From a virus: 64,000 nt of DNA. The notes under the pieces are model-generated. The model did no database searches, was not told where the DNA came from, and saw only the letters and a program-made list of their open reading frames with translations. The DNA lies in the IMG/VR virus record IMGVR_UViG_3300020477_000014, positions 64,001-128,000 of that record. The stretch is one strand, 5' to 3'. Position numbers and translations under genes: made by a program. Of the stretch, positions 41,362 through 56,330 are shown piece after piece (position 1 is the stretch's first letter; the number at the start of each line of letters is the position of its first letter).

Positions 41362-41425
41362 GCGATGCAAGTCAGGCTGTTGACTCACGCGGGTAGCGCC
41401 CGTTTTTTAAAACAAGGATAGCAAA

Positions 41426-42031
41426 ATGGCTAAGAAACTTTTACGAGAGTATTATCAATTGTGCGAGGGAGGCGTTTGTCAAGATTTATTAACTGAAGAA
41501 GAAAAACGTTTCGTTGCCAATGGTGGCATGATCTTATCGGGTATTATGCAAATGGCAGAAACAGTCAATGGCAATGGTCGCATTTATCCCCAAGCCGTCT
41601 TGATGAATGAAATCAAGAATTATCAAAAACTAATTAAAGAAAAGAGAGCTTTGGGAGAATTAGATCATCCTGAAGATTCTGTTATAAATTTAAGAAATGC
41701 TTCTCATTTGGTAACGTCATGCTGGATGGAAGAGAAAAATGTAATGGGGAAGATTCAAGTGTTGAATACGCCATCTGGCAAAATTTTGCAAGAGCTTGTT
41801 CGTGGAGGTGTCAGTATAGGGATTTCATCAAGAGGAATGGGCTCCGTTACAGAAAGTAACGGACAAACAATTGTAGAAGACGACTTCCAGTTAATTTGTT
41901 TTGACATGGTTTCTGAACCATCCACCCCTGGCGCCTTTATGATGCGCGAAGCAAAAGACTATGACAACCAAGTGTTTACAAGAGCCGATCGAATCAACAG
42001 GCTGTTAAACGAGGTTTTGGGAGATGAATGA
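41426..42031 (+). CDS. Prohead maturation protease (T4 gp21-like)
   Basis: NGNGRIYP, ALGELDHP, GISSRGMGS, FDMVSEPSTPGAF. Confidence 0.92.
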   Translation: MAKKLLREYYQLCEGGVCQDLLTEEEKRFVANGGMILSGIMQMAETVNGNGRIYPQAVLMNEIKNYQKLIKEKRALGELDHPEDSVINLRNASHLVTSCWMEEKNVMGKIQVLNTPSGKILQELVRGGVSIGISSRGMGSVTESNGQTIVEDDFQLICFDMVSEPSTPGAFMMREAKDYDNQVFTRADRINRLLNEVLGDE

Positions 42032-42734
42032 TTGGTCCAGTTTTCCTAAAGATAAACAACTGATGGACTCATGGAGAAAACATTTAAACGAGGGACCTTT
42101 GGATGCTATGGACGATTTCACCGATTGGTGGCGAGATAAAGAAGAGTACGACTTCGGATATAAGGGCGCTCAGCAAGGTGTTCCCCAAGACGATGTTCGC
42201 TTACCGGCGCCAGCCGCGGACGTGGAGTGGGTACCAAATGCTGAAGTAGAGTGGGAAGAAGATGAGCCCGATCTAGAAACTCTCCCTTATTTGTTGCACC
42301 ACTCTTTCGGTTCTACCCAAACCAAAAGCGACGTCTATAAGACATATAAAAATCGATATAATAGAGCCTTTAAGGAAGGCAACATTGAAACAAAAAATCA
42401 GTTTGAAAAAGACTTGACTTATTTTGTTAATTTTGTAGGGCCCTTTTTGCGGTATTATGATAAACGCAAGAGTGTTTCTGAAGAAAAAGATATTAAGGAT
42501 ATTAAAAAAATGATCAGCGTCTCTCATCGATTCGCTCAAGACAATGAGAATATATCAAATATCATAAACACCTACCGAGCAACAAAAATAGAACACCCAA
42601 ATAGTGCACAATCAGTAGCAAGAATGGCAAAACTCTTTGCTGACACGGCGGCTAAAAGACATTTGGGAAATTTGATAACTTATATTAAAAAGAGAAATAG
42701 CAATGAAAAAACAAGATCTAAAGAAACTCATTAA
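42024..42734 (+). CDS. Hypothetical protein with LMDSWRKHLNE leader variant
   Basis: ORF track; GGGAG SD; leader similar to 31699 and 33187. Confidence 0.5.
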   Translation: MNDWSSFPKDKQLMDSWRKHLNEGPLDAMDDFTDWWRDKEEYDFGYKGAQQGVPQDDVRLPAPAADVEWVPNAEVEWEEDEPDLETLPYLLHHSFGSTQTKSDVYKTYKNRYNRAFKEGNIETKNQFEKDLTYFVNFVGPFLRYYDKRKSVSEEKDIKDIKKMISVSHRFAQDNENISNIINTYRATKIEHPNSAQSVARMAKLFADTAAKRHLGNLITYIKKRNSNEKTRSKETH

Positions 42735-43140
42735 ACCATTAGTAAAAGAATGTATTCATGAAGTTCTTATCGAAGAGGGGCACCTTTCTGATATCGTAAG
42801 TGAAGTTGCAAAGGGGATGAACAGACAGCCCCTATTGGAGTCGCGGAGCCCAAAACCCTCACGCCGCCAGGAAAAAGAAGTAGAGCGCGAAAAAACACAA
42901 TACACAGAACGAAGGCGCCGCAAATTAACCGAACAGCGACAACAGTTGGCTGATGCGATTGGGCGCGACGCCTATAATGGTGTTAATTTATTTGAGGGAA
43001 CGGAGCCTTTGCGCCGTGGTGGAAAAGCCGGCGGAGATCCAGAAATGCCAGATGTGCTAGGGGATGACCACCGAGACTCCGGGGTCGATATTAGTTCTTT
43101 GTTGGGCGGAGCCACTAAAGTCTGGAAAGCAATCAAATAA
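42703..43140 (+). CDS. Hypothetical protein with MKKQDLKKLIKPLVKECIHEVL leader
   Basis: ORF track; leader similar to 32424 and 32897. Confidence 0.55.
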   Translation: MKKQDLKKLIKPLVKECIHEVLIEEGHLSDIVSEVAKGMNRQPLLESRSPKPSRRQEKEVEREKTQYTERRRRKLTEQRQQLADAIGRDAYNGVNLFEGTEPLRRGGKAGGDPEMPDVLGDDHRDSGVDISSLLGGATKVWKAIK

Positions 43141-43148
43141 GGTGTGAA

Positions 43149-43400
43149 ATGAAAAAGAAGCTAGTTTATGCAAGTGTGACTGCGAAGGAGTGTAAGGGGA
43201 ATATAGACCGCATGATTCGGAAGTTTATGAAGAAAGTTAAGAAAGAAAGAATTATTGAGCAAGTTCGAGATCGACGCTTTCACAAAAAGCCGTCGGTGAA
43301 GAAAAGAGAGAAGCGCATTAGAGCCGAACGCGCGCGTAAACGAGAGGAAGCAAAGCGTCAACGGAGATTGAAAAAACAAATGCGAAACTACAAAAAATAA
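43149..43400 (+). CDS. rpsU: Phage-encoded ribosomal protein bS21
   Basis: NIDRMIRKFMKKVKKERIIEQVRDRRFHKKPSVKKREKR matches the bS21 pattern (xLRRFKR...EVRRRE(F/Y)(Y/H)EKP); very basic; TAAGGTG SD. Confidence 0.8.
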   Translation: MKKKLVYASVTAKECKGNIDRMIRKFMKKVKKERIIEQVRDRRFHKKPSVKKREKRIRAERARKREEAKRQRRLKKQMRNYKK

Positions 43401-43439: not shown

Positions 43440-43793
43440 ATGAGTTCAAACATTTATACAGCAGGGTTAAGAAATGTCGGTAGTTATCAAGTGGCTGGCA
43501 TACCCTATCTTACAGCGTCTTATCTTATTGAGCAAGAAAAGCAATTTACATTTCCGTATGTTACTAAAAACATTTTAGTTCAAAATACAGGCTCTAATGA
43601 GTTGTATTTGTATTTTTCTGGTTCTTCAATAAACAAGTTGATAATTCCTCCGGGAAAAACTATAAATATGGATGTGAAGTGTGTGCTTATTTATGCATCG
43701 GCATCTAGTCAGACAGGCATGCAGATGGCAGCCGAATTGACCACCATAGGCACTAATCACATGTATTCATTAGATGGATTGGAGGGAGTATAG
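43440..43793 (+). CDS. Small virion protein, paralog 1 of the NVGSYQV family (117 aa)
   Basis: GLRNVGSYQVAGIPYL...FPYVTKNILV...MDVKC...ELTTI. Confidence 0.6.
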   Translation: MSSNIYTAGLRNVGSYQVAGIPYLTASYLIEQEKQFTFPYVTKNILVQNTGSNELYLYFSGSSINKLIIPPGKTINMDVKCVLIYASASSQTGMQMAAELTTIGTNHMYSLDGLEGV

Positions 43794-44161
43794 TGGCTGA
43801 TTTTATTTATAGTGTGGGCATCAACAATGTCGGATCTTATCAAGTGTCTGGGCGCCCATTTTGTGTTACTGGTACGGTGAACAATAGTGGTAGAAGAGTT
43901 GGGTTTCCGCACGTAACCAAACAATTGATAGTCATCAATCGTCATTCGGTTAACCCAATGCAGGTTTATTTTCATGTTGCTTCTCCTGATCCCAGTTGTC
44001 GATATAGCATTAATGCCGGAGAACAACAGACTTTTAATATGAAATGTAAAGAGGTTTTTGTAAGTTCGTCGGCTGCCGTAGACTATACTTTATATGCTTC
44101 TTTGACCGGTATCCCTGCTCAGCGAATGTACGCACTAACTGGATCCGGAATAACGAGTTAA
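43793..44161 (+). CDS. Small virion protein, paralog 2 of the NVGSYQV family (122 aa)
   Basis: GINNVGSYQVSGRPF...FPHVTKQLIV...FNMKCKEVFV...LTGSGITS; GTG start overlapping the upstream stop; GGAGGG SD. Confidence 0.6.
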   Translation: MADFIYSVGINNVGSYQVSGRPFCVTGTVNNSGRRVGFPHVTKQLIVINRHSVNPMQVYFHVASPDPSCRYSINAGEQQTFNMKCKEVFVSSSAAVDYTLYASLTGIPAQRMYALTGSGITS

Positions 44162-44163
44162 GC

Positions 44164-47100
44164 ATGGCCAAAAAGTATACCCCCAGCACTGGTTTGAGAA
44201 ATGTTGGTAGCTATCAAGTGTCCGGCACTCCCTTTATAAAGCGAGCCACACTTGCGTCCGGTGATGAAGTTAAAATTGAGTTTCCTTCGGTGGCGCGTAA
44301 TATAACAGTACAGTTGGATTCGGAGGTTGGTGGTGAAATTGACAACGGATCTTATAAGGTAACCAACAATGATGGCGGTGCGGTCACTCAAGGTCAAGCT
44401 TGGACAACTGACGGAAAAGAGTTCACTGTTTCATTTTGGGCTAAAGTAAATGCAGCCCCCGTGTACTCTACTATAGTTGGGTTTGCGGCATCCCCGTCGG
44501 GGCAAAACGAGGGTCGTTGGAGTTTGCGGGTCCTAGGCGCCAACAACTATAGGATGCGATTCAGAACCGCTGATAATAATTTGGTGACTGATGATTGGAC
44601 ACCTAGCTTTACCTCTACGGATTGGAATTTTTATACGCTTGTTCAAACTAAAAATCAACTTTCTCTTCATATGAACGGAAATACGACTCCGGAGAAAACT
44701 ATAACAGCAAATCCAGGAGAGGTGATAGATACTGGTAATTTAGTTAGATATCTTCAAATAGGGGATCCAAATAATACTAACGAGAGCGCACAAATCAATA
44801 TAATAGATTTGGTCGTTTGGGATCGCGCATTGAAAGATGCGGATATTACTGCTATCTATAATTCTGGCGACGAATACGATTACAAGACTGCCCTCCCTAA
44901 TCGCGATTATCCTTCTTCCAGCTTCTCGTTTGCTGATGGTACAGCATACACAAGAACCATAGCGTCCCGCGATGGACCACCCCCTAGTAGTGTGTCTTAT
45001 CCCGATCAATATACTTATACATCAGGCGATAAGGGCTGGCGCTTTATGGCACCAAAGTCGGATTCCACCGTACAGATTCGTTTGCCGATCGGCTGGAAAC
45101 ATAACGGTGTAACCCTCACCGAATACAAAGACATAAATATTCGCCTTACTGGACAAACAGCCACCCCCCTTGCAGCCCCCACATATGATGATATGTTGGT
45201 GCGCGTTTGGACGGGAGAAGCCGGCGAAAACAGCCCTATCACACCTTTAAGTAGCTCAGTCAATTTTGTCGACGCTATCAACGGATTAGGAACAACTGAT
45301 CAATATAACGTTAATACCAGCACGATGCCGGGAGGGATGACAGAAGGTCTCCCAGGATTTTCAGCATCTGTAAGTCCCAATATTCAAGGCGGCGTTGATA
45401 TGTGGGTTGCCGAAGATCAAGATCAATCACTGGCTCAATATCTGCGCATACGCACCCCTTACACCGATGATCGCGGTGCATTCATGACACCGAATGCTGT
45501 AGCCAACATGCCTTATAGTTCGGACGATGGGTGTTACGAGATTATTGCTAGCGGAAGTGGTGGCTTCAAAGCACAAGCACCGCCATGGCTTACTGACGGT
45601 CGAGAATTCACAGTATCGTTTTGGGCAAAAGTGACGTCGCGTAGCACAACATGGGGAGAGCCCGGAAACGGCAAGCGCTCACTGGTCGGCTTTGCTACCA
45701 ATCTAGTCAATCCGGGCGGTAGTGCAGAAAATACTTGGTATTTTCGTATTTATGGCGCCAACAATCCGGGCGAAAACTATTCTTTTTGTCCCAAGAAAAG
45801 CTACGATCCAGCCACACAGTCAGACACCACCGAATCTGAAACCGGTTTCAGCCTGGCGGGGACCGACTGGTCTAAGTGGCAATTTTACACCATTGTACAA
45901 AAGCGCGATTCGGCGGTGATTTACGTTGATGGCGTGGAGCGAAAGACGTATAATTTGACTGCCGGGCACGTAATTGCCACATCTCAGTATCGCTATTTGA
46001 CCTTTGGAGATCCTAGTAATCCTCAAGATGAGTCCGCCCCAATGCAAGTTCGCAATGCAGTACTCTGGGATCGCCCTCTGAGTACAGATGACATAGCTGC
46101 CATTTTTGCAAAACACAACAATGTCGATTATGAAACACCTCTCCCGGTGAGAACTTCTTATCCATCGTCAAGCTTTGTGTATTCTTACGAAGGGGCATAT
46201 CAGCACACATTTGGAAGCAAGTCAGACGAAAGTGCGTTGTCGATACTTGATCAATATACATATACCGGAGGCAATAAAGGGTTTAATTTAGAGAACTCTC
46301 AAGACGGAAGCAATTTTCAACTTTACCTTCCAGCCGGCTGGAAACAAAATGGCGCCACTTTATCTGAGCCCAAATTTATAACGTTGCAACAAGCCGGCAC
46401 AATTCCCGGCTCGATCCCAGCCGGGATTGACATGGTGGTGAAGTGTGCAACCGGCGATCCAGCCGCAGATGCCATTAACCTTGTTGATGCAATCAATGGG
46501 CTCGGAACAGTGGCTCAATATAAGGTGAGTGCCCCCACGATGCCGGGAGGAATCCAAGAAGGAGTCCCGGGACTGTCTGCTTCCATGAGTCCGAACACCG
46601 AAGGGGGAGTCGATGTGTGGGTGACCTCCGAACAAGATTCAAATTTAGCGCAATATGTGAGAGTGCGCGCACCCACTTCTGCGTCGGTCACTGGGTGGAC
46701 CGGTCTGCCGGCATCGACAGCAGTTCCAGCCGCCGCCGGTGAAATGCCTAAAGGTGTGGCACAATCATGGGAGAATAAAGATGTAGATCATGGTGGTTTT
46801 ATTGCAAAGAACCCCAATGCACCCGAAGCGTGTTTTCCAGGATATAATAGCGCCGGACAACTTCAAGGGATGACTACCTCTCTATCGTTTTGGATGAAAA
46901 TGACAGGCGATCCTTCGACGTCGGGATATACTTATGACGGCGATCCCATGATGTTAGTTTATGGATTTGGATTAGAGGATGGATCTCCGGGGTCTCATTT
47001 CTTTGGCTTTTCAGATTGGGGTACCCCCGGTGGTACCGATGCTGCTGCTAGTTTTAGAATTCAAACTCAATCTTCTTATCGTCTAAACAAGCAATTCACA

Positions 47101-49017
47101 AACATGCCCGATCCTCGCCAATGGCGCCATTATACGATTGTGTATGATCGCCTAAACGTGGTCATTGGCAATAAGATGGCGTTTTATATTGATGGTGTTC
47201 TGCATGATAGTTGGGTTGGTACCTCGCCATACCCAACTCAATATCGAAACGACGTCGCCTGGAATGTCGATTACACCCCTCAGATTGGTTCTCCGTGGGG
47301 AGGCGCCAACGCATCTAATATTGGCGTTTATAAAGATTTTATAATGTGGAACAATCGCGCCCTGAATGCTGATCAGGTTGCAGAATTGTACAATGCTGGC
47401 AATTATAACGAAGATCTCACTACCATATTTCAGACCGGAAGCGCAGGGGATCCTGTCAAGTACGGCTGTTTTTATGATAATGGTACTGATGGAACCTTTT
47501 ATAATGGAGCTAAGGGGTTTGTTGTTACGAGTAGTAATGCGGTAGCCAACACACGTTGGGGAATCCGCATACCCCCGGAGTGGCATGCAGGCTGGGGATT
47601 TAAAGATTATTGGTGGAGATTTTATGCCGATGTTTCTACACAAGCAGATCCGTCGTACAACGCTAATCAAGGTATTAAAGTCCAACTTGGGGCGACCGCC
47701 GAGGAATCAGCAGATAATTTTAGAAAATGCCTTAATAGAACCGTGGACACCAATTATTGTCGGTATTACAATGGAGATCCCACCGTGCCCGGTGGCGCCC
47801 CACAGTACCTCTCTGGCGCCATTAATGATCTTTATCCGCGCGCCGTAGATATACATGTAAGCGCTAGTTTATCTGGTGACGAGGTATACCGACAAGCAAT
47901 TTGTCCTAAGATTAGTTTCAAGCTGGTTTCCATGGTGAACCCAACAGTTGATGAAGATTTTGTTTTTCCTCCCGGCTACTATGAGGCCCTAAATGATCGG
48001 CAGCCTGGCAGTCCGCATGCTTTTTATATGACAGATTGGTTTGGGTGCACACACCCAGACAAAAGAATCTGGTGGTTATCGGATTCTGGTTCTTCCCCAG
48101 GTTCGGATATTCCCCAGGATACCCTTTCTTATCTATATAATCACGCAACAGGCACCGCAGCACAGAGTACGTTTGACGTTAGTGGTCTTGCTGACCATGA
48201 TCATCGTTTCACACACATGACGGGAACCATACGTCATGATGATAGAGGCGGCTTCACTACCGATGTTCCCTACGCTTATCCAGTTGGATTTGAGTCTTGG
48301 GTAAGTTGGAACTGGGACTGGTTCACTGACGACGTTAACGCACAAAAATTGATCTGGTATGATTGCAATCGAAATAGCGGCGATACCACGGGCTCATTAT
48401 ACAATAATTCTACGGACCCTCGGGCTATTACCGGCAGTTGTGCGACTTTTCCTAATGCTTCTGCGAGCATACCGATTTCTGATGATGGCAGATTCTATAT
48501 CGCCACGCCAACAGGATCGGCGCTAGACAAAGAGAAGTGGAACTGGAACTGGACACTAGATAACGTGAACGCACAAAAGTTGATTTGGTATGATTTTGAT
48601 ACCAATGCCAGCCCTAAACCAGATGACACAACCAGCAAATTTTGGAATCGTTCTACGGAGCGTCGAGCCATTCTGAATGGTAATCCTGATTTTCCCAACG
48701 CATCTGCGAGCGTTACAACGCCGGCTTACGGGGAATACGAGGCTAATGTTCCGCCGGGATATCCGACAGGTAGTGAGTCCGGAGGCGGTATTGCCTATAT
48801 GGGATTCAAATCCACAGGATCTTATCCGGGAGTAATCTCCAACAAGCACTATTGGAAGCTTGAGAACAAAAACGACAAATTATCTATGAACATAAAAGCA
48901 AAAGAAATCTATTTATCTGCAACAGATGGAGATTGTACTTATTCGGTACAAGCAGATCTTACTTCTATTTCTACTGAGAGCATGTTCGAGCTAACTGGCT
49001 CAGGAATAGATTCATAA
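44164..49017 (+). CDS. Large LamG-repeat virion protein, paralog 3 of the NVGSYQV family (1617 aa); probable receptor-binding/decoration protein
   Basis: Family N- and C-termini flank three LamG-like domains (FTVSFWAKV; WNFYTLV/WQFYTIV/WRHYTIV; DRAL/DRPL/NRAL) and internal repeats. Confidence 0.7.
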   Translation: MAKKYTPSTGLRNVGSYQVSGTPFIKRATLASGDEVKIEFPSVARNITVQLDSEVGGEIDNGSYKVTNNDGGAVTQGQAWTTDGKEFTVSFWAKVNAAPVYSTIVGFAASPSGQNEGRWSLRVLGANNYRMRFRTADNNLVTDDWTPSFTSTDWNFYTLVQTKNQLSLHMNGNTTPEKTITANPGEVIDTGNLVRYLQIGDPNNTNESAQINIIDLVVWDRALKDADITAIYNSGDEYDYKTALPNRDYPSSSFSFADGTAYTRTIASRDGPPPSSVSYPDQYTYTSGDKGWRFMAPKSDSTVQIRLPIGWKHNGVTLTEYKDINIRLTGQTATPLAAPTYDDMLVRVWTGEAGENSPITPLSSSVNFVDAINGLGTTDQYNVNTSTMPGGMTEGLPGFSASVSPNIQGGVDMWVAEDQDQSLAQYLRIRTPYTDDRGAFMTPNAVANMPYSSDDGCYEIIASGSGGFKAQAPPWLTDGREFTVSFWAKVTSRSTTWGEPGNGKRSLVGFATNLVNPGGSAENTWYFRIYGANNPGENYSFCPKKSYDPATQSDTTESETGFSLAGTDWSKWQFYTIVQKRDSAVIYVDGVERKTYNLTAGHVIATSQYRYLTFGDPSNPQDESAPMQVRNAVLWDRPLSTDDIAAIFAKHNNVDYETPLPVRTSYPSSSFVYSYEGAYQHTFGSKSDESALSILDQYTYTGGNKGFNLENSQDGSNFQLYLPAGWKQNGATLSEPKFITLQQAGTIPGSIPAGIDMVVKCATGDPAADAINLVDAINGLGTVAQYKVSAPTMPGGIQEGVPGLSASMSPNTEGGVDVWVTSEQDSNLAQYVRVRAPTSASVTGWTGLPASTAVPAAAGEMPKGVAQSWENKDVDHGGFIAKNPNAPEACFPGYNSAGQLQGMTTSLSFWMKMTGDPSTSGYTYDGDPMMLVYGFGLEDGSPGSHFFGFSDWGTPGGTDAAASFRIQTQSSYRLNKQFTNMPDPRQWRHYTIVYDRLNVVIGNKMAFYIDGVLHDSWVGTSPYPTQYRNDVAWNVDYTPQIGSPWGGANASNIGVYKDFIMWNNRALNADQVAELYNAGNYNEDLTTIFQTGSAGDPVKYGCFYDNGTDGTFYNGAKGFVVTSSNAVANTRWGIRIPPEWHAGWGFKDYWWRFYADVSTQADPSYNANQGIKVQLGATAEESADNFRKCLNRTVDTNYCRYYNGDPTVPGGAPQYLSGAINDLYPRAVDIHVSASLSGDEVYRQAICPKISFKLVSMVNPTVDEDFVFPPGYYEALNDRQPGSPHAFYMTDWFGCTHPDKRIWWLSDSGSSPGSDIPQDTLSYLYNHATGTAAQSTFDVSGLADHDHRFTHMTGTIRHDDRGGFTTDVPYAYPVGFESWVSWNWDWFTDDVNAQKLIWYDCNRNSGDTTGSLYNNSTDPRAITGSCATFPNASASIPISDDGRFYIATPTGSALDKEKWNWNWTLDNVNAQKLIWYDFDTNASPKPDDTTSKFWNRSTERRAILNGNPDFPNASASVTTPAYGEYEANVPPGYPTGSESGGGIAYMGFKSTGSYPGVISNKHYWKLENKNDKLSMNIKAKEIYLSATDGDCTYSVQADLTSISTESMFELTGSGIDS

Positions 49018-49030
49018 TGAGGTACATACA

Positions 49031-49705
49031 ATGAGTTTTGGATGGGCATATATAAACTGTAGCGGAAGCGGTGGTGATCACGTTGGTGGACCTCAGAGTT
49101 CGATTCAATTTATTAAACAACCCTACCATTCTACGGGATCTGCGAATTTAGTTTTCTATACTAGTTCTTATGGAGGTTACGGGCCAAACACAATGAGGCT
49201 CAAAGGCACACTGCACGTCAGTGGCACTATTAGCGCTAGCCATTATCACATTGAAAACGTTACCGAGATCGACGCTAGTGGATCTACGTACTTTGGTAAC
49301 ACAAATGACGATGTTCATATTAGGACCGGGAGCCTAGAGGTTGTTAAGGCAGACGGTAGTTATATTCTCCAGTCTTTAACTGCCACTCGCCAAACCAAAA
49401 TCAAGGCATTGCGACTAGGATTAGACATAGTGGATACAGCTATCTATACAGCCTCACAAGATACTTGTATTTTGGGTATTGCACAACCTAATGATGTGTA
49501 TATTCAATTGCTAACAGCTTCGGTAGCCGGTTCTGGATCCGTAGTGGTAATTAAGGATCAGATTGCACCCAACCGCGGCCCTTATTCTATTTATTTGTCA
49601 GCTTCGAGTTCAGATAGGATTGATGGCTCTACTATCTATGAAATGACTGGTTCTATGCTAGCCATTAATTTATATTCAGATGGGCGGAACTGGTACGTAT
49701 TCTAA
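49031..49705 (+). CDS. Fibre-like virion protein (224 aa)
   Basis: GGPQSSIQF motif; C-terminal VVIKDQ...RIDG...LYSDGRNWYVF domain shared with the next two genes. Confidence 0.55.
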   Translation: MSFGWAYINCSGSGGDHVGGPQSSIQFIKQPYHSTGSANLVFYTSSYGGYGPNTMRLKGTLHVSGTISASHYHIENVTEIDASGSTYFGNTNDDVHIRTGSLEVVKADGSYILQSLTATRQTKIKALRLGLDIVDTAIYTASQDTCILGIAQPNDVYIQLLTASVAGSGSVVVIKDQIAPNRGPYSIYLSASSSDRIDGSTIYEMTGSMLAINLYSDGRNWYVF

Positions 49706-49720
49706 GGGGAGCACACTTTA

Positions 49721-50467
49721 ATGGCATTTAACCAATTATCCGGTACCATTATTGCTCCAGAATACTTTGGACCCTCCCCGGGGAGTGGTCTGAATAATGT
49801 TATTGTGGGAACTGTCTCTGGTACTCTCCAAGGCAATGCCGCAGATATTGAGGGGGTTCCTCGTATTGTGGCGAATGCCACTGAAAACAACCTTTTAACC
49901 GTTGGGGTAGATGCCGATTCGCTTGTGGGGGAACCAACCCTAACTTTCGATGGTGTTCGATTAAACATATCCGGGCAATTGACCGCAAGTTCTGCTATTT
50001 CCGCTTCGGTCTTTTATGGTTCCGCCGCGGGGTTAACGGACTTGCCAGCCGCAAATGGCGGCGGTCCTTCTGGCGCAATTCAATTTATGACTAATGCCGG
50101 ATCCATTAGTGGATCTGGTGGGTTTTTGTTTCAGAATAACAATTTAAAGATAGATGGCGGTGTAATTGGCAGACGAAGAAACATAGCCTCCAATGTACAA
50201 GGTGCCACTGCATCAGTTAGCGATTACATTATTGGAGTGGACACCACAGCTACTTCTACGGGGATAAGACTTCAGCGCGCCATCACACTTGAGAATGGGC
50301 AAATGCTTGTCATTAAAGACGAGGGAGGATCCGCAAATATTAATAATATCACAATTAATGCATCAGGATCTGATAAAATTGATGGTCAAAGTTCGGTCAT
50401 TTTGCAATCACCTTATGCATCAATCCAGTTATTTTGTAATGGGTCAGGATCCTACTTTATTTACTGA
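49721..50467 (+). CDS. Fibre-like virion protein (248 aa)
   Basis: GGPSGAIQF motif; C-terminal LVIKDE...KIDG...LQSPYASIQL. Confidence 0.55.
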   Translation: MAFNQLSGTIIAPEYFGPSPGSGLNNVIVGTVSGTLQGNAADIEGVPRIVANATENNLLTVGVDADSLVGEPTLTFDGVRLNISGQLTASSAISASVFYGSAAGLTDLPAANGGGPSGAIQFMTNAGSISGSGGFLFQNNNLKIDGGVIGRRRNIASNVQGATASVSDYIIGVDTTATSTGIRLQRAITLENGQMLVIKDEGGSANINNITINASGSDKIDGQSSVILQSPYASIQLFCNGSGSYFIY

Positions 50468-50603
50468 CGAAAATTAAATTACTTTTCGTTGCACTGCTCT
50501 CTAATTAAAGACGATTGGGTGGAATATCCATCCATTCATCCATGAACGGTTGCGACTGTTCATTGGATAGCTTTAAAAACTATATTTATGGAGGGTTTTT
50601 TAT

Positions 50604-51809
50604 ATGGCTTATAAATTTCAATTAGGACCCGCTCTTTTAAGCGGTTCCGTAACACAAAAGGGTGTTGCCCCTGGTTTCATCCAGTTGGTGGACGAAAACT
50701 TTGCTACCAAAATCGAACTTGATGCAGGTCCCGGCGCGATTTCGGGCTCTGGAGCAGCTAAGTTTGGGCTAGATCTTACTGCTAGCGCTGTACACGCAAA
50801 ATCAGAAATTCATGCAAATACAAATGTATCATGTAATGGTGCCATGGTCACCAATAGAATTTCGGACAAAGGTGGGCTTCTGGCTATGACCGGATCTAAT
50901 CAACTGGCTTTTCGTGCCGGTGGCGGCGGTAATGCGTATATAAAGTTCTATAACTCAAGCACTGGCACCAGTGCTGATCACGAATTCTACTCTGGGTGGT
51001 TTCAAAACAGAACCGGTAAAACTTTACTCGGAGCCGATATGTCTCAAGATTCAATATGTACGTTCAAGGAAGGAAATTTTGATAGATTTACTATCGGAAA
51101 CGACACTAGTAAAGACACATTTAGTATCGATTCGGGGAATTCCTTGAGTGATACTCCGTTGCTCTCTGTCGGACCTTTTGATAAAGGCGGCGTTAAAACA
51201 ACAATGGGAATTACTGCTCAGTTGGGTCTAACCGGCGCTTTAAAGTACAGAATGGATCTTGCCCCGGGTGGCGGTCTTGTTAATTCCGGTACCGGAGTTG
51301 GTCCTTTCGACAACACTGGCAACTATAGCTTGGGTCTAAGTGCCTCTGTGTTGAATGCTGCGGCTCCATCTGTTGGTGGTGATTCGATGTTGTTTTATAA
51401 TAACGCTGGTGTGGCTAAGCGGATGAGTATGATTGACTATGCTAACAATATTGCAGGTAATGGTATTACTGCTGTTAGTGGTGTGCTTAGTGTCGATACA
51501 CAGGCGGGAGACCGTATCAGCGCCTGGTCTCATGGAGATGCAAATGCCAACATGAAGGCAGGTATTAACTATGCTAGTGCACAGTTAACTCAAAATCGTG
51601 TGTGGACGCTTCCTTCTGGATCGGCTAATGTCAAAGATGGCGAAGTCTTTCACGTGAAGCTTGCGACTCTTGCTGCGCAGAAGGCTCTAGTTGTTACATG
51701 TCAAGGCGCTGCTAGAATCGATGATAGTCATTTGACAGTTGTTCTCGGTGCAGAATATACTTCTGTTGCTTTTGTGTACGTTGGTGCAGATAAGTGGCGA
51801 ATCGTCTAA
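50604..51809 (+). CDS. Fibre-like virion protein (401 aa)
   Basis: Gly/Ser/Thr-rich; C-terminal WTLPSG...RIDD...LGAEYTSVAFVYVGADKWRIV; GGAGGG SD. Confidence 0.55.
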   Translation: MAYKFQLGPALLSGSVTQKGVAPGFIQLVDENFATKIELDAGPGAISGSGAAKFGLDLTASAVHAKSEIHANTNVSCNGAMVTNRISDKGGLLAMTGSNQLAFRAGGGGNAYIKFYNSSTGTSADHEFYSGWFQNRTGKTLLGADMSQDSICTFKEGNFDRFTIGNDTSKDTFSIDSGNSLSDTPLLSVGPFDKGGVKTTMGITAQLGLTGALKYRMDLAPGGGLVNSGTGVGPFDNTGNYSLGLSASVLNAAAPSVGGDSMLFYNNAGVAKRMSMIDYANNIAGNGITAVSGVLSVDTQAGDRISAWSHGDANANMKAGINYASAQLTQNRVWTLPSGSANVKDGEVFHVKLATLAAQKALVVTCQGAARIDDSHLTVVLGAEYTSVAFVYVGADKWRIV

Positions 51810-51845
51810 TCTTTACTGTTATTTATTAGAAAGCAATGCTTTCAG

Positions 51846-51870
51846 GCACCCCCTCGTGGGGTGCTTTTTT
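51846..51870 (+). terminator. Rho-independent terminator
   Basis: gcacccc-ctcgt-ggggtgc followed by T6. Confidence 0.8.
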
Positions 51871-51882
51871 ATAAGGAGATAT

Positions 51883-52101
51883 ATGAAGACGTTAGATTTA
51901 CATGGAGAAAGGCATTCCGATATTGCTCGAAAGGTAGCAAATTTTATTCTTTTAAACAAACCCCCTTTAAAAATAGTGACTGGGAAATCGCAAAGGATGA
52001 TAGCCATAGTTACACAAATTTTAGACAAATATGATTTTGATTACTATCCGGAATATTTTATCAATTATGGGGCTTATATTGTACAGGAAAAAAGAAGATA
52101 A
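51883..52101 (+). CDS. Mini Smr-like domain protein (72 aa)
   Basis: MKTLDLHG...LKIVTGKS resembles the Smr LDLHG...I(I/V)(H/T)GxG pattern. AAGGAG SD at 51873-78 supports ATG 51883 over the track start 51739. Confidence 0.55.
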   Translation: MKTLDLHGERHSDIARKVANFILLNKPPLKIVTGKSQRMIAIVTQILDKYDFDYYPEYFINYGAYIVQEKRR

Positions 52102-52131
52102 TCGCCCTATTTATAGTGAAGAGGGTTATTT

Positions 52132-53280
52132 ATGGCTTATTATGGTAATCAAAAAACTGATTCAAATAAACACAACACCAAGAATAAAAAAACGGAAGTG
52201 TCCGACACTCATTATCTGGGCGCCGTTACCGCTAGCGCGTTTTATGATTCTTTCGAAAGAAAAACATTACGCCCCCCGGCCATAACCAATATAATCAACG
52301 ATCATCGGAATCGGGTATTGGTGTCGCGCGGCGATGGTACCGCTGTTGCGTTCAAGGGGCTAAGTTTTAATGGAGACTCTTTGCTAGCATCTGCTTATTT
52401 TGGTTCTGGTGTAGGTTTGACGAATCTTCAAGCTAGTGCTTTGGTGGGAAATGTACCATTAAAGAATATTAATTACGGCGCTGGCTTGGTGGCTGCCAAT
52501 AACCAACTTCAGGTAAACATAGCTGAGGGATTGGTGTTAACCAATAACCAGGTTGGTATTAAGACTACGGCGAAAGGAGGTCTTCGGTTGACTCCCGACG
52601 GGATTCGTGTAGATCCTAGCATGGCACCTGAAAAAAGAGCAGTAAGCATTAATGATAGATTTTTGATTTCAGATAGTGATAACCAAGATGCAGCTAAAGG
52701 AGTGGCTATACGATATCTATCTAATTATTTTCAGAACACACTTAATTTTTCGCAGCCTAGTGGCAGAGATGCCCACATTCAGTTTAACAATAATGGGAGA
52801 TTTGGCTCTTCCCCTCATTTGACCTTCCGGGGAGAGACTTTGGCTACTATTAATGTATCCGCGCGCGGACATATACAAGTGGGGACCAATTTATTGAAGG
52901 CTGATCGTACGATGCTAGCATTGCCAAGTGTGCCTATCGATAATTCTACATTACCAAACAATGGTCTTTGCATGTATATAGATGAAGAGCAAAACAAGCT
53001 GATGTTAAAGGTGAAATATTCTACGGGAGTCGTTAGGAACATTGCTGTCGATCTTATAGAGAGGGCGATAGTGCAAGAAGAGGATGATGAATCAGAAAAC
53101 CAAGGCTTCATAATGGATGATGAAAGTATGGATGAAAAAATAGGGATTAACAACCCGAATGACTTGGAAGAGTTGGACGATAAGTCGTTTCAGGATATCG
53201 AATCTCCCGAGATCGAAATGACATCTTCCTCGTCGGGGGGCATTTTGGGTTATTTTAAAAGTGCGTTTACTAAAAAATAA
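52132..53280 (+). CDS. Fibre-like/virion-associated protein with acidic C-terminal tail (382 aa)
   Basis: SAYFGSGVGLTNL and GRDAHIQFNNNGRFGSS resemble segments of 49721; GAGGG SD. Confidence 0.5.
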   Translation: MAYYGNQKTDSNKHNTKNKKTEVSDTHYLGAVTASAFYDSFERKTLRPPAITNIINDHRNRVLVSRGDGTAVAFKGLSFNGDSLLASAYFGSGVGLTNLQASALVGNVPLKNINYGAGLVAANNQLQVNIAEGLVLTNNQVGIKTTAKGGLRLTPDGIRVDPSMAPEKRAVSINDRFLISDSDNQDAAKGVAIRYLSNYFQNTLNFSQPSGRDAHIQFNNNGRFGSSPHLTFRGETLATINVSARGHIQVGTNLLKADRTMLALPSVPIDNSTLPNNGLCMYIDEEQNKLMLKVKYSTGVVRNIAVDLIERAIVQEEDDESENQGFIMDDESMDEKIGINNPNDLEELDDKSFQDIESPEIEMTSSSSGGILGYFKSAFTKK

Positions 53281-53324: not shown

Positions 53325-54509
53325 ATGTCAAGTTTACTTAAAGAAGCGATTGTCGATGCGGCCGCTCTTAAAGAGGCAGCGTTGAAAAACGCAGAAGCAG
53401 CAATTATCCAAAAGTATTCTGCTGAAGTAAAAGACACAATTGATAAATTGTTAGAACAAGATGATTTAACTGCCGAACTAGGCGGAGACCTAAGCGGTGA
53501 AGAAATGGGCGACCCCGGCATGGGTGAAGACCCTGCGGTGGCTGCGGATGCTCCACTGGAAGAGGTTGAAGAAGTTACTGAAGACGATATTCCTTTGGCT
53601 AGCACTAATGGGCTTTCTAAAGAGGTGGGCGTTGGTTTAAACGAAGCCCCTACCGAGGGAGAAAACGTCGAGTTTAATGTCAACTTAGAAGCTCTCCATG
53701 AAGCAATTCAAGAACTGCAAGCGGAATTAGATGAAGAGATTGAAATTACCGAGGAAGATTTAGAAGGATTGCTGGAAGACCCGGAACAACTTGCAGAAGC
53801 AGACCCAACAACTGCCTCTGCTGCGGCAGAGGATGCTGACGTTAACGCAATGGATAGCCTGGAAGACACACCTAATCCACAAAAAGACGAAGAAGGCGAA
53901 GCTGTTGATGCTTCTGTGATGGGCGAAAACGAAGTTGAAGAGATTTCGGAAGATCTCATCGATGCAGTAATGGAAAAACTTACAGTCGATATGGGAGCTA
54001 CCCTATCCGGATGGGCGGGACGCTCATCTGAGTCTATGAAGTGGGAGATTGAAAAAGCTCTTGCACATAGAAGAAGCTCCGATTTCGATGAAGAATTTGA
54101 AGATTTGAAAAAAGCTCACAAAGAATTGGTTTTCGAAAATAACCAAATCAAAGAGCATAATGATAAATATAAGCAGACAGTTGCGCAACTTAAGGAGAAT
54201 CTACAGGATATTAATCTCTCCAACGCGCGACTGCTTTACACGAACCGTGTTCTTAGGAATACCTCCTTGAATGAGCGACAGAAACAGAAAATTGTCGAAG
54301 CTATTTCAAACGCCGGTTCAGTTACGGAGGCAAAGACAATATACAAGACCCTTCAGAGCACAATGGAGACCAAGCAAACAAAGCCCGGTCCACAATCGTT
54401 GAGCGAAGCAATTGGTAGTCGGCCTTCTTTTGTTCGTGCTACTCGCAAAGAAAGTAAACCTGTTGATACTTTAAGCGATAGGATGAAGAAACTAGCTGGA
54501 ATTAAATAA
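53325..54509 (+). CDS. Prohead core/scaffolding protein
   Basis: Highly acidic and coiled-coil; immediately upstream of the major capsid gene; GGAG SD. Confidence 0.65.
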   Translation: MSSLLKEAIVDAAALKEAALKNAEAAIIQKYSAEVKDTIDKLLEQDDLTAELGGDLSGEEMGDPGMGEDPAVAADAPLEEVEEVTEDDIPLASTNGLSKEVGVGLNEAPTEGENVEFNVNLEALHEAIQELQAELDEEIEITEEDLEGLLEDPEQLAEADPTTASAAAEDADVNAMDSLEDTPNPQKDEEGEAVDASVMGENEVEEISEDLIDAVMEKLTVDMGATLSGWAGRSSESMKWEIEKALAHRRSSDFDEEFEDLKKAHKELVFENNQIKEHNDKYKQTVAQLKENLQDINLSNARLLYTNRVLRNTSLNERQKQKIVEAISNAGSVTEAKTIYKTLQSTMETKQTKPGPQSLSEAIGSRPSFVRATRKESKPVDTLSDRMKKLAGIK

Positions 54510-54530
54510 AAATTATGGAGGTATTTAAAT

Positions 54531-56330
54531 ATGTCTAGTATTATTGAAAGACTGACTGAAGGCGTTGTCAACCGCGACATGAAAGCCGAAGGTCATGCTC
54601 TACTTAAAAAATGGGAACGCACTGGTCTCCTTGAGGGATTAACCAATGAGCGTCAAAAAAATTCTATGGCTCGATTGCTTGAAAACCAAGCTAAAGAGCT
54701 TCTTCGCGAAGCAAGTACTATGGCGATGCCAAGTAGCGACGTGGAAGGTTTTGCATCTGTTGCATTTCCTATCGTCCGTCGTGTTTTCGCAGGTCTGATC
54801 GCAAACGATCTTGTTTCCGTTCAGCCAATGAGCCTTCCAAGTGGACTCATCTTCTTCCTTGACTTTACGTTCAACAGCACCCGTATGGATGGCACTGAGG
54901 ACAAGTCAATTTATGGTGGCGATGAGGTTGGTTCAGAGATCACCGGCGGCGTAGACTTGGTGGGAGCCTTGAAGCAAGATTTTGCTGGTCCCCGTACAGT
55001 CGCGGCTCGTGGTTATGCTTACGCATCTCCAACCGGCTCTGGCGCACCAACTGAGGTTACAAAGATAAGTTGTTTTTCTCTGACTTCTTCAACAAATGCT
55101 CAACGACGAGATACTTTGATTTATGATCCTGATATTTTGTCTCTATCGGCTTCTGCTGGTAAATATACTGCTCTTTCTGTTGTGGTGGCCAAAGAAGCTA
55201 TTACAGGTTCTCAAGCTGGCCAACCGGCTGATTATGACAATCTTGGTGCTTTCACTTTGTCAGGGATTACTGCTCTTACCAATGTTGCATCAACCGCAGT
55301 TCAAATTAAACGACTGACCCAGTTGACAACTCTTGCTGGTAAGCCAGATCCTGCCGGCGGTTATGTTCAATTTGTGTTGTTCGGTACCGATGACTCTAGC
55401 GGAATCAAAAACATTGCCGGCACTGCCGCTAATGCTGATGGTTCTTTACACCCCAGTATTACAATCACTTATCCTATTAAAGATAATATCGTGGATGCAA
55501 ACGCTGTTGGCGCAGTTAAGGGTACTCAATTGTGGGGGCTCGAAAACAATACAGCCATCCCTGAGATCGACATCAAGGTCGATAGCATCGCTGTCACCGC
55601 GCAAACCAAGAAACTGAAAGCCAAGTGGACACCTGAATTGGGTCAAGACTTGAATGCTTATCATAACTTGGACGCAGAAGTTGAGTTGACTTCGATCCTT
55701 TCTGAGCAAATTGCTCTTGAAATCGATCGTGAGATCTTGGCTGACCTTGTGAACGGCGCGAAAGCTTCTACCTATTATTGGTCACGTTCTCCTGGTTTGT
55801 TTGTAGATCGTGTCACCGGCAACGAGGTGGGTGCTGCTTCTAAAGCTCCCGACTTTACGGGTACGGTTTCTGAATGGTATGAGACTCTTATTGAAACAAT
55901 TAATGACGTCTCGGCTCAGATCCACCGCAAGACTCTTCGGGGTGGCGCTAACTTTATCGTCTGCGGACCTGAAGTGGCTAATATCCTTGAGTTCACTGCT
56001 GGCTTCCGTGCTTCTGTCACTAATGATGACGAAAGCGGCTCGGTTGGTGCTGTGAAAGTTGGTAGTCTTTCTAAGAAGTTTGACGTTATCGTCGATCCTT
56101 ACTTCATTCGGAATGTTATTCTCGTTGGTCGTCGGGGTTCTAGCTTCCTTGAAAGCGGATATGTGTATGCACCGTATGTGCCACTACAAACTACTCCCAC
56201 AATCTTCGGGCCTGAAGACTTCGTGCCAAGAAAGGGTGTCATGACCCGTTACGCGAAGCAGATGGTTCGTCCAGATATGTATGGATTGGTTATCGTTCGT
56301 GGTCTTCTTGGTGAGGACGGAGGCGCTTAA
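54531..56330 (+). CDS. Major capsid protein (T4 gp23-like)
   Basis: LLENQ, RRVFAGLIANDLVSVQPM, KLKAKWTPELGQDLNAYHNLDAEVELTSILSEQI, YAPYVPLQ, GVMTRYA; GGAGGT SD. Confidence 0.95.
   Translation: MSSIIERLTEGVVNRDMKAEGHALLKKWERTGLLEGLTNERQKNSMARLLENQAKELLREASTMAMPSSDVEGFASVAFPIVRRVFAGLIANDLVSVQPMSLPSGLIFFLDFTFNSTRMDGTEDKSIYGGDEVGSEITGGVDLVGALKQDFAGPRTVAARGYAYASPTGSGAPTEVTKISCFSLTSSTNAQRRDTLIYDPDILSLSASAGKYTALSVVVAKEAITGSQAGQPADYDNLGAFTLSGITALTNVASTAVQIKRLTQLTTLAGKPDPAGGYVQFVLFGTDDSSGIKNIAGTAANADGSLHPSITITYPIKDNIVDANAVGAVKGTQLWGLENNTAIPEIDIKVDSIAVTAQTKKLKAKWTPELGQDLNAYHNLDAEVELTSILSEQIALEIDREILADLVNGAKASTYYWSRSPGLFVDRVTGNEVGAASKAPDFTGTVSEWYETLIETINDVSAQIHRKTLRGGANFIVCGPEVANILEFTAGFRASVTNDDESGSVGAVKVGSLSKKFDVIVDPYFIRNVILVGRRGSSFLESGYVYAPYVPLQTTPTIFGPEDFVPRKGVMTRYAKQMVRPDMYGLVIVRGLLGEDGGA

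What the first reader, a model, noticed from the sequence alone, without database searches (positions are those of the whole stretch)
43440..49017. Three tandem paralogs of a ~120-aa scaffold, one carrying a ~1490-aa insert in a single loop
ORFs 43440 (117 aa) and 43793 (122 aa) align end to end with only the termini of ORF 44164. Residues 1-53 match (GLRNVGSYQVSGTPF...FPSVARNITV), and residues 1542-1617 match (YMGF...MNIKAKEIYLS...ADLTSI...LTGSGIDS versus VYF...FNMKCKEVFVS...ASLTGI...LTGSGITS). The termini sum to 129 aa. Everything between (44323-48786) is a passenger of three LamG domains and repeats. Inference: two bare subunits and one loaded subunit form a heterotrimeric capsid or tail anchor that displays a large, exchangeable glycan-binding array. 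This would be a natural display platform and a likely host-range hotspot. It is my best candidate for an undescribed system in this window.
Basis: partly seen in the sequence, partly recalled or inferred. Interest (0 to 1): 0.8.

Follow-up and report, generated by a model that had tools for sequence, protein, structure and literature searches.

The report
Split jelly-roll phage anchor displaying lectins
An uncultured marine T4-like phage carries three adjacent copies of a small, unnamed jelly-roll virion protein, and the third has about 1,490 residues of sugar-binding-type domains inserted in one loop, so it probably serves as a head-borne, exchangeable adhesion display.

Summary
P0001 (117 aa) and P0002 (122 aa) are paralogs (34% identity, E 2e-19). 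A family profile matches the 1617-aa P0003 only at residues 4-53 and 1545-1616, and the two pieces are contiguous in profile coordinates.

AlphaFold models P0002 as an eight-strand jelly roll. The insert replaces the hairpin loop between strands 40-49 and 56-59.

The family is large (1,689 clusters at 50% identity). It has no Pfam, PHROG or NCBIfam model and no hit in 50,697 cultured-phage records.

In about 85 related loci the gene always lies between the head protease and core genes and the scaffold and major capsid genes. Genomes carry one, two or three domains. Paralogs 1 and 2 are sometimes fused into one chain. The last paralog carries inserts of 191-1459 aa, at two different loops. A phage about 80% identical in DNA has a different 1.6-kb cassette inside the insert.

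I read it as a clade-specific capsid decoration or anchor that forms hetero-oligomers and displays lectin-type (LamG) arrays. Virion location and stoichiometry are inferred. A strict heterotrimer is not supported, because one- and two-paralog genomes exist.

The parts
43440..43793 (+). Paralog 1 (P0001, 117 aa): bare jelly-roll subunit of the position-1 type, ending in LDGLEGV
   Evidence: profile E 7e-38. Falls in the position-1 clade. The last codons contain GGAGGGAG, the Shine-Dalgarno site for paralog 2.
43793..44161 (+). Paralog 2 (P0002, 122 aa, GTG start overlapping the stop of paralog 1): bare jelly-roll subunit ending in LTGSGITS
   Evidence: AlphaFold gives an eight-strand jelly roll, pLDDT 79, pTM 0.68, with residues 1-18 below pLDDT 50.
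44164..49017 (+). Paralog 3 (P0003, 1617 aa): loaded subunit, starting 2 nt after the stop of paralog 2
44164..44322 (+). N-terminal half of the split jelly roll (residues 1-53): the conserved arm GLRNVGSYQVSGTPF and the first strands
   Evidence: Profile positions 5-54, E 4e-15.
44323..48786 (+). Insert (residues 54-1541). It replaces the 6-residue hairpin loop that lies between strands 40-49 and 56-59 of P0002.
44341..45459 (+). Insert module A (residues 60-432): LamG domain (Pfam residues ~73-228) followed by an unassigned ~200-aa domain
   Evidence: Laminin_G_3 E 4e-13. Homologous to the single LamG of short loaded relatives.
45523..46674 (+). Insert module B (residues 454-837): a duplicate of module A
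   Evidence: 41% identity over 399 aa, E 6e-89. Laminin_G_3 E 2e-7.
46702..48310 (+). Variable cassette (residues ~847-1383), including the divergent LamG-like module C (residues ~902-1080). It has no nucleotide similarity to the otherwise ~80%-identical relative L006.
48208..48672 (+). Two ~75-aa tandem repeats (residues 1349-1422 and 1429-1503) that lead back to the scaffold
   Evidence: 41% identity, E 1e-14. About 88% identical to L006 from residue ~1400 on.
48787..49017 (+). C-terminal half of the split jelly roll (residues 1542-1617) with the conserved tail ADLTSI...LTGSGIDS
   Evidence: Profile positions 60-127, E 1.6e-16.
41426..43400 (+). Conserved upstream context: T4-type prohead protease (41426-42031), a variable 236-aa gene, a charged 145-aa core-like protein (42703-43140) and a bS21-like gene (43149-43400)
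53325..56330 (+). Conserved downstream context: a very acidic, helical, scaffold-like 394-aa protein (53325-54509) and the gp23-type major capsid protein (54531-56330). In eight relatives the single family gene lies 67-158 bp upstream of this pair, with no ORF of 70 aa or more between.

Best explanation
Shown: the three genes encode paralogs of an unnamed, about 120-145-aa, eight-strand jelly-roll protein. The family is specific to a large clade of uncultured marine T4-like myophages. In the third paralog one hairpin loop is replaced by a 1,490-aa array of two LamG modules, a divergent third module and tandem repeats.

Inferred: the jelly roll is an accessory head protein of the decoration or cement type. 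It probably binds the capsid shell and its neighbours through its extended N- and C-terminal segments. These are the most conserved parts of the family and are not folded in the monomer model. In genomes with several paralogs the subunits co-assemble into one hetero-oligomer in which bare subunits space out one loaded subunit. The loaded subunit then projects a lectin-type array from the particle surface. The array would give reversible adhesion to host or environmental glycans, as proposed for T4 Hoc and the HFTV1 turrets. It evolves by internal duplication and cassette exchange while the anchor stays constant. The oligomer is more likely a ring or lattice that tolerates 1, 2 or 3 subunit types (for example six-fold, or one subunit per capsid protein) than an obligate ABC trimer.
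For: Paralogy and the split domain are supported.

The jelly-roll fold comes, and only generic jelly-roll or cupin matches were found (Z up to 8.9).

Of 11 invariant columns, 10 lie in residues 9-20 and 102-119. Residues 1-18 have pLDDT below 50, and pLDDT falls to 69 and then 53 over residues 111-122.

Head-module position: terminase, portal, protease, core proteins, [family], acidic scaffold-like protein, gp23-type capsid protein. This order is conserved in about 85 loci, and in eight of them the single family gene lies within 158 bp of the scaffold and capsid genes.

The family is absent from the nearest cultured relatives, which share the synteny (immuto, Mel-JY01). It is therefore accessory rather than core.

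Evidence for one complex: position-specific paralog clades, 23 natural fusions of paralogs 1 and 2, and overlapping or 2-nt-spaced genes with no terminator inside the unit.

Evidence for surface display: LamG domains. Inserts range from 191 to 1459 aa at two loops, and some relatives carry C-terminal extensions with Ig-like or TSP3 domains. A cassette is swapped between phages about 80% identical in DNA.

Precedent: the BPP-1 cement protein Bbp16 is a 140-aa jelly roll encoded next to the capsid gene. [quoted passage not shown]
Against: There is no direct evidence that any family member is in a virion. The clade has no cultured member, no proteomics and no structure.

No sequence or profile similarity to Bbp16 was found (hhalign probability 0.1), and no specific structural match to any known decoration protein.

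The genes just downstream include one with weak similarity to T4 baseplate and fibre-attachment domains (PHROG baseplate protein E 8e-8; Pfam T4_gp9_10_N E 7e-4, below threshold). The block could therefore be a fibre module lodged in the head region.

AlphaFold of the natural two-domain fusion gave no confident packing.

Glycan binding by these LamG domains is assumed from the family name only.
Confidence: 0.55

Rival explanations
1. One reading: an obligate 1:1:1 heterotrimer (two bare subunits plus one loaded) sitting on three-fold positions of the capsid or on the tail.
For: The window and 20 of the surveyed loci have exactly bare+bare+loaded. Fusion of paralogs 1 and 2 plus a loaded gene still gives three domains. 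The three genes are tightly coupled. Many decoration proteins are trimers (general knowledge; decoration-protein review PMC7602432 listed, not read).
Against: Complete loci exist with one domain (at least 23), with two bare domains, or with bare plus loaded only. A trimer cannot be built with equal stoichiometry from two subunit types. No multimer prediction was possible, and the fusion model was uninformative.
Confidence: 0.2
2. The jelly-roll proteins are part of the neck or collar, or an adaptor for fibres (whisker-, head-fibre- or tail-fibre-like). They would form a 6- or 12-fold ring from which the LamG array and the large neighbouring proteins project.
For: Six- and twelve-fold rings accommodate 1, 2 or 3 subunit types equally (inference). 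The stretch between the family and the scaffold gene is a 0-8.5-kb hypervariable island of large proteins. The 248-aa neighbour resembles T4 gp9/gp10-type attachment domains weakly. The phage has another LamG-bearing giant protein of more than 3,600 aa.
Against: In minimal loci the gene is wedged between prohead-core genes and the scaffold and capsid genes, with no fibre genes nearby. The neck and adaptor genes lie after the capsid gene.
Confidence: 0.17
3. The jelly-roll oligomer caps or fills the five-fold vertices, like the PRD1/PR772 penton in which bare P31 and spike-bearing P5 share one jelly-roll ring.
For: The genome has a single gp23-type gene and no gp24-like vertex paralog. Several of the better structural matches are vertex or turret jelly rolls: STIV A223 Z 8.5, SH1 Z 7.8, HCIV-1 Z 7.8, PR772 Z 7.2. 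PR772 sets the precedent of bare plus loaded paralogs in one ring.
Against: These Z-scores are at the background level for this search, and cupins and Ena pilins score the same. Five-fold rings do not fit equal amounts of two or three paralogs. No HK97-type capsid is known to use a jelly-roll penton, and T4-type capsids can close vertices with gp23 itself (general knowledge).
Confidence: 0.06
4. The proteins are not structural: a cupin-type enzyme or an assembly chaperone that happens to be encoded in the head module.
For: Cupin enzymes are among the fold matches.
Against: No invariant or near-invariant His, Asp or Glu exists that could bind a metal. Conservation is concentrated in the extended termini, not in a pocket. 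Giant lectin-type inserts and cassette exchange are typical of exposed virion proteins.
Confidence: 0.03

Closest known systems
Bordetella phage BPP-1 cement protein Bbp16 (PMC3863775)
   Same: It has about 140 aa and an eight-strand jelly roll on an HK97-type capsid. Its gene lies in the protease and capsid block. It binds the shell mainly through its extended N- and C-terminal segments plus one loop, and it lies flat so that both ends of the barrel are exposed. Here the conserved termini, the size, the fold and the head-module position all match.
   Different: No sequence or profile similarity was found (hhalign probability 0.1). BPP-1 has one gene, no paralogs and no inserted domains. It is a podovirus and its gene follows the capsid gene. 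The location of the present family is not shown.
PR772/PRD1 vertex: P31 plus the N-terminal domain of spike protein P5 (PMC6750898)
   Same: Two paralogous jelly-roll domains of about 125 aa, one bare and one carrying the host-recognition part, share a single hetero-oligomeric ring of three P5 and two P31. This is the logic proposed here. PR772 chain 6q5u_O is among the fold matches (Z 7.2).
   Different: P5 carries its load as a C-terminal extension, not in a loop. The virus is membrane-containing with a double-jelly-roll capsid, not a tailed HK97-type phage. The fold score is at background level.
Capsid turrets of Haloferax tailed virus 1 (bioRxiv 10.1101/2024.12.09.627619)
   Same: This is a tailed virus whose capsid hexamers carry a ring of a small base protein topped by a carbohydrate-binding head, proposed to give the first, reversible adsorption step. 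The base-protein chain 8qpg_TD is a weak fold match (Z 7.0).
   Different: Base and head are separate proteins there (a hexamer plus a trimer). Here the binding domains are inserted within the anchor's own fold. There is no sequence relationship.
T4 Hoc and adenovirus penton base (general knowledge, not tested here)
   Same: Hoc is a dispensable T4 head protein that displays Ig-like domains for weak adhesion. The adenovirus penton base is a single jelly roll whose large functional domain is inserted in jelly-roll loops.
   Different: Hoc has no jelly-roll anchor, and no Pfam or PHROG hit links it to this family. The adenovirus penton base is a homopentamer of a eukaryotic virus.

Membership tests
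Jelly-roll cement or decoration protein of HK97-type capsids (BPP-1 Bbp16 type) | Eight-strand jelly-roll (BIDG/CHEF-type) beta-sandwich of about 140 aa | tested here: met
   The AlphaFold model of P0002 has eight strands, pLDDT 79. All fold matches are jelly rolls or cupins.
Jelly-roll cement or decoration protein of HK97-type capsids (BPP-1 Bbp16 type) | Gene within the protease, scaffold and major-capsid block | tested here: met
   compare BPP-1 bbp18-bbp17-bbp16.
Jelly-roll cement or decoration protein of HK97-type capsids (BPP-1 Bbp16 type) | Detectable homology to Bbp16 | tested here: not met
   hhalign of the family profile against Bbp16: probability 0.1, E 0.55. I therefore file this as 'works like', not as a member.
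Jelly-roll cement or decoration protein of HK97-type capsids (BPP-1 Bbp16 type) | Bound on the outer capsid surface through its N- and C-terminal segments | not testable with these tools
   Only indirect evidence: the termini are the most conserved parts of the family and are not folded in the monomer model.
Laminin_G_3 / concanavalin A-like lectin domain (PF13385) | Score above the Pfam gathering threshold (27.6 bits) | tested here: met
   Module A scores 50.1 bits and module B 31.7 bits; the whole protein scores 88.7 bits with 3 stretches. Module C alone gives no hit at E 0.05, so the third domain is inconclusive.
Laminin_G_3 / concanavalin A-like lectin domain (PF13385) | Carbohydrate binding | not testable with these tools
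   This needs glycan arrays or binding assays.
Cupin metalloenzymes | Conserved His/Glu/Asp metal-binding motifs | tested here: not met
   The invariant and near-invariant columns contain no His, Asp or Glu.
PRD1/PR772 penton proteins P31/P5 | Structural or sequence relationship to P31 | tested here: inconclusive
   6q5u_O gives Z 7.2, rmsd 2.9, 88 residues aligned, which is within the background range. The profile search of PDB sequences found nothing.
PRD1/PR772 penton proteins P31/P5 | Host virus with a double-jelly-roll capsid and an internal membrane | tested here: not met
   This genome has a gp23-type HK97 capsid protein, a T4-type portal, protease and terminase, and a tail sheath.
Known phage protein families (PHROGs v4, Pfam-A, NCBIfam) | Any profile hit for the jelly-roll scaffold | tested here: not met
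   No PHROG, no significant Pfam and no NCBIfam hit for P0001, P0002 or the termini of P0003. There was no tblastn hit in 50,697 phage records with three different members.

The most novel reading that the evidence does not exclude
The genome has only one gp23-type gene and no gp24-like vertex paralog. The jelly-roll paralogs might therefore form the five-fold vertex complex of an HK97-type capsid, as a PRD1/PR772-style hetero-oligomeric penton or turret with a built-in lectin spike on a tailed phage. That would be a hybrid of the two great capsid lineages that has not been described.
Probability: 0.06. Interest if true: 0.9.

Novelty: new variant of a known kind. Interest (0 to 1): 0.58.

Why it matters
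The family is abundant in ocean metagenomes (1,689 clusters at 50% identity; 525 loci in IMG/VR) and has no name in any library searched.

If it is a capsid anchor, it would show three things. First, a whole clade of marine T4-like phages carries head-borne lectin arrays. Second, these arrays are renewed by cassette exchange while the anchor stays fixed. Third, a 120-aa jelly roll can tolerate 200-1,500-aa insertions at two loops and at its C-terminus.

This gives a concrete, testable candidate for how uncultured marine myophages make first contact with cells or particles. It is also a naturally validated loop-display scaffold. The series of one, two, fused and three paralogs is a clean example of how a homo-oligomer becomes a hetero-oligomer with a specialised subunit.

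Tried and rejected
- **Nucleotide search.** The locus gave no match against cultured phages.
- **tblastn.** P0002, P0117 and P0068 gave no match against cultured phages.
- **Nearest cultured relatives.** The family profile found nothing in Flavobacterium phage immuto or Microcystis phage Mel-JY01. At the syntenic position Mel-JY01 has an unrelated Lys-rich 388-aa protein.
- **PDB sequence search.** The profile search gave only chance hits, E about 1.
- **Fold searches.** Foldseek against PDB, VIA-align wide and the VIA second look returned only generic jelly rolls or cupins, best Z 8.9 (Ena pilin). BPP-1 Bbp16 was not among the rows shown, which proves nothing.
- **BFVD.** The search returned only uncharacterised phage proteins.
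- **ESM Atlas.** It returned only unnamed viral clusters for P0002, and nothing for the unassigned domain at residues 236-445.
- **Complex prediction by proxy.** AlphaFold of a natural paralog-1/2 fusion (P0139, 23-sequence alignment) gave pLDDT 53 and pTM 0.36, which is unusable. No true multimer prediction is available, and P0003 exceeds the 1,200-aa limit.
- **Cupin enzyme idea.** Rejected for lack of metal ligands.
- **Protease-processed internal head protein.** No conserved L/I-x-E site was seen by inspection of the three sequences. Lectin inserts also argue for an exposed protein.
- **Self-BLAST.** Full-length P0003 against itself returned nothing, probably because the full-length self hit masks off-diagonal matches. 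Comparing segments solved this.
Full report
**1. Observation**

The window is bases 64001-128000 of a 189.7-kb IMG/VR viral contig that CheckV rates complete. ORFs 43440-43793 (117 aa, P0001), 43793-44161 (122 aa, P0002) and 44164-49017 (1617 aa, P0003) are present on the + strand.

P0001 and P0002 align over 113 residues at 34% identity, E 2e-19. P0003 matches them only at its extreme ends.

A profile built from 55 family members (A1) matches P0003 residues 4-53 to profile positions 5-54 and residues 1545-1616 to positions 60-127, with E 4e-15 and 1.6e-16. The two ends are therefore the two halves of one domain, and about 1,490 residues lie between them.

**2. The scaffold**

AlphaFold with the family alignment models P0002 as an eight-strand beta-sandwich, pLDDT 79 and pTM 0.68.

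Fold searches return only generic single jelly rolls and cupins. The best are:
- Ena pilin 7a02, Z 8.9
- STIV turret protein A223, Z 8.5
- SH1 and HCIV-1 vertex proteins, Z 7.8
- PR772 penton chain, Z 7.2
- HFTV1 turret chain, Z 7.0

These values are in the range the tool calls background. The fold class is clear, but no specific relative is.

The insert of P0003 replaces the six-residue hairpin loop between strands 40-49 and 56-59 of P0002.

Of 11 invariant columns, 10 lie in residues 9-20 (motif GLxNVGSYQVSGxP) and 102-119 (ASLTxIP..RMY.LTGSGI). No invariant or near-invariant column is His, Asp or Glu. Residues 1-18 are modelled below pLDDT 50, and confidence falls to 69 and then 53 over residues 111-122.

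This pattern argues against a cupin enzyme. It fits a protein whose conserved function is contact with partners through extended arms.

**3. The insert**

- Module A (residues 60-432) and module B (454-837) are 41% identical over 399 residues, E 6e-89.
- Each contains a Laminin_G_3 domain above the Pfam threshold, followed by about 200 unassigned residues.
- Module C (residues ~902-1080) is only 23% identical to B and does not score on its own.
- Two 75-residue repeats (1349-1422 and 1429-1503) precede the return to the scaffold.
- The single LamG of short loaded relatives aligns with module A contiguously with the N-terminal scaffold half.

P0003 therefore looks like a one-LamG ancestor that was enlarged from within.

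**4. Genomic context**

The neighbouring genes, in order, are:
- large terminase (36043)
- T4-type portal (37635)
- three small unassigned genes
- T4-type prohead protease (41426)
- a 236-aa gene
- a charged 145-aa core-like protein
- a bS21-like gene
- the trio
- five unassigned genes
- a very acidic, helical, scaffold-like 394-aa protein (53325)
- the gp23-type major capsid protein (54531)
- an adaptor-like gene
- the tail sheath (60081)

Strong intrinsic terminator-like sites flank the unit at 41389, 51844 and 56356, and none of comparable strength lies inside the trio. Paralog 2 starts on the last base of the stop codon of paralog 1, with GGAGGGAG just upstream. Paralog 3 starts two bases after the stop of paralog 2.

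The genome has only one gp23-type gene.

**5. The family elsewhere**

The scaffold has no Pfam, PHROG or NCBIfam hit. Three different members gave no tblastn hit in 50,697 cultured-phage records.

It is nevertheless abundant:
- 234 near-length homologs, mostly from marine metagenomes
- 1,689 representatives at 50% identity with E up to 0.001
- 525 confirmed stretches in IMG/VR

The closest cultured phages by capsid and portal proteins are Flavobacterium phage immuto and Microcystis phage Mel-JY01, at about 39-48% identity. They share the gene order but lack the family. The family is therefore a clade-specific accessory gene, not a core T4 head gene.

**6. Comparative anatomy**

I surveyed about 85 loci. 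In every one the family sits after the protease, the 145-aa protein and usually bS21, and before the scaffold and capsid genes.

| Architecture | Loci |
|---|---|
| One bare gene | 47 (at least 23 have the scaffold gene downstream, so they are not truncated) |
| Two bare genes | 2 |
| Bare plus loaded | 5 |
| Bare, bare, loaded (includes the window) | 20 |
| Fusion of paralogs 1 and 2, plus loaded | 3 |
| C-terminally extended, bare, loaded | 1 |

In eight of the single-gene loci, 67-158 bp and no ORF of 70 aa or more separate the gene from the scaffold gene.

The loaded gene is always the last. Insert lengths are 191-1459 aa.

Clean breakpoints fall at two sites, profile positions 51-54 (the window's site) and 69-73 (the next loop). 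A third way of loading is a C-terminal extension with Ig-like or TSP3 domains in proteins of 813-865 aa.

A domain tree groups sequences by gene position. Each half of the fusions falls with the corresponding free paralog, and single-copy genomes form their own clade (short alignment, moderate support).

Between the family and the scaffold gene lies a hypervariable island of 0-8.5 kb that encodes large proteins.

**7. Exchangeability**

The relative L006 is 72-80% identical in DNA across the locus. It shows no nucleotide similarity from window 46702 to 48310. At protein level, residues 1-500 and 1400-1617 are about 68-100% identical. Residues 850-1400 are 12-34% identical, with only remote domain-level similarity. 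A cassette inside the insert has therefore been replaced while the anchor and the neighbouring modules were kept.

**8. Interpretation**

Shown:
- one jelly-roll domain is split by an insert in a single loop
- the paralogs are old and position-specific, and are sometimes fused
- insert size and content vary while the termini are conserved
- the gene has a fixed place in the head module

Inferred:
- the protein is on the particle surface, most likely on the capsid
- it is held by its conserved arms
- multi-paralog phages build a hetero-oligomer in which one subunit displays a lectin-type array for reversible adhesion

The best precedent is the BPP-1 cement protein. [quoted passage not shown] It lies flat, so both ends of the barrel are free. 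A flat orientation would also explain how two loops on either side of a short strand, and the C-terminus, can all carry cargo. I could not inspect coordinates, so this last point is speculation. There is no detectable homology to Bbp16, so this is a functional analogy and not membership.

PR772 shows that bare and loaded jelly-roll paralogs can share one ring. HFTV1 shows a tailed virus with glycan-binding turrets on its hexamers.

**9. Stoichiometry**

It does not fit the two-domain genomes if subunits are made in equal amounts. Six-fold or twelve-fold rings, or one subunit per capsid protein at distinct quasi-equivalent sites, fit one, two and three subunit types. I could not test this.

**10. 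Rivals**

- **Neck or fibre adaptor.** This is plausible because the 248-aa neighbour weakly resembles T4 gp9/gp10-type attachment domains and the adjoining island encodes large proteins.
- **Vertex complex.** This is suggested by the absence of a gp24 paralog and by vertex jelly rolls among the weak fold matches.
- **Non-structural role.** This is unlikely.

**11. Verdict**

This is a new, widespread and unnamed family. It combines known principles (jelly-roll cement protein, loop insertion, bare-plus-loaded paralogs, head-borne lectins) in an arrangement not described for tailed phages. I rate it a new variant of a known kind, with interest 0.58. L013, with an 810-aa insert, is of that type.

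Noticed in passing
window 2-11026 (+): A giant ORF of more than 3,630 aa runs off the left end of the window and also carries a Laminin_G_3 domain (residues 231-378, E 1.6e-17). It is followed by further large unassigned ORFs of 572, 1241 and 1047 aa. It is probably a fibre or adhesin, and a second LamG-bearing virion protein in this phage.
   Followed up: partly
window 54531-56330 and the whole genome G000: The gp23-type major capsid protein has 599 aa, and the Pfam Gp23 match is split into two pieces, which suggests an extra inserted domain. It is the only gp23/gp24-type gene in the 189.7-kb genome, so there is no dedicated vertex paralog.
   Followed up: partly
window 49031-53280; loci L008, L010, L022, L046, L073 and others: The stretch between the jelly-roll genes and the scaffold gene is a hypervariable island. 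It is 0 to 8.5 kb long in relatives and holds proteins of up to about 1,400 aa. In the window it holds a conserved 224-aa gene, a 248-aa gene with weak T4 gp9/gp10-like similarity, and 401-aa and 382-aa genes.
   Followed up: partly
window 42024-42734 versus L006 7773-8966: The gene just after the prohead protease has 236 aa here and 397 aa in the ~80%-identical relative. DNA similarity breaks off exactly there (window 42078-42952). This is a second replaced segment in the same operon.
   Followed up: no
L093 (Microcystis phage Mel-JY01) 7430-8596: At the syntenic position, after the protease, a 154-aa protein and bS21, this cultured relative has an unrelated 388-aa protein with a very Lys-rich N-terminal third instead of the jelly-roll family.
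   Followed up: no
window 43149-43400 and relatives L008, L010, L093: A bS21-like ribosomal protein gene is conserved immediately upstream of the family in most loci, inside the head gene block. It scores in Pfam Ribosomal_S21 in relatives, and only as a PHROG hit at E 2e-4 in the window.
   Followed up: no
P0123-P0145 (for example L031, L042, L044): In the natural fusions of paralogs 1 and 2, the second domain still begins with a copy of the N-terminal leader (…LKNQVPNVYSVGL…). The fusion therefore arose by simple loss of the stop codon between two adjacent genes.
   Followed up: partly
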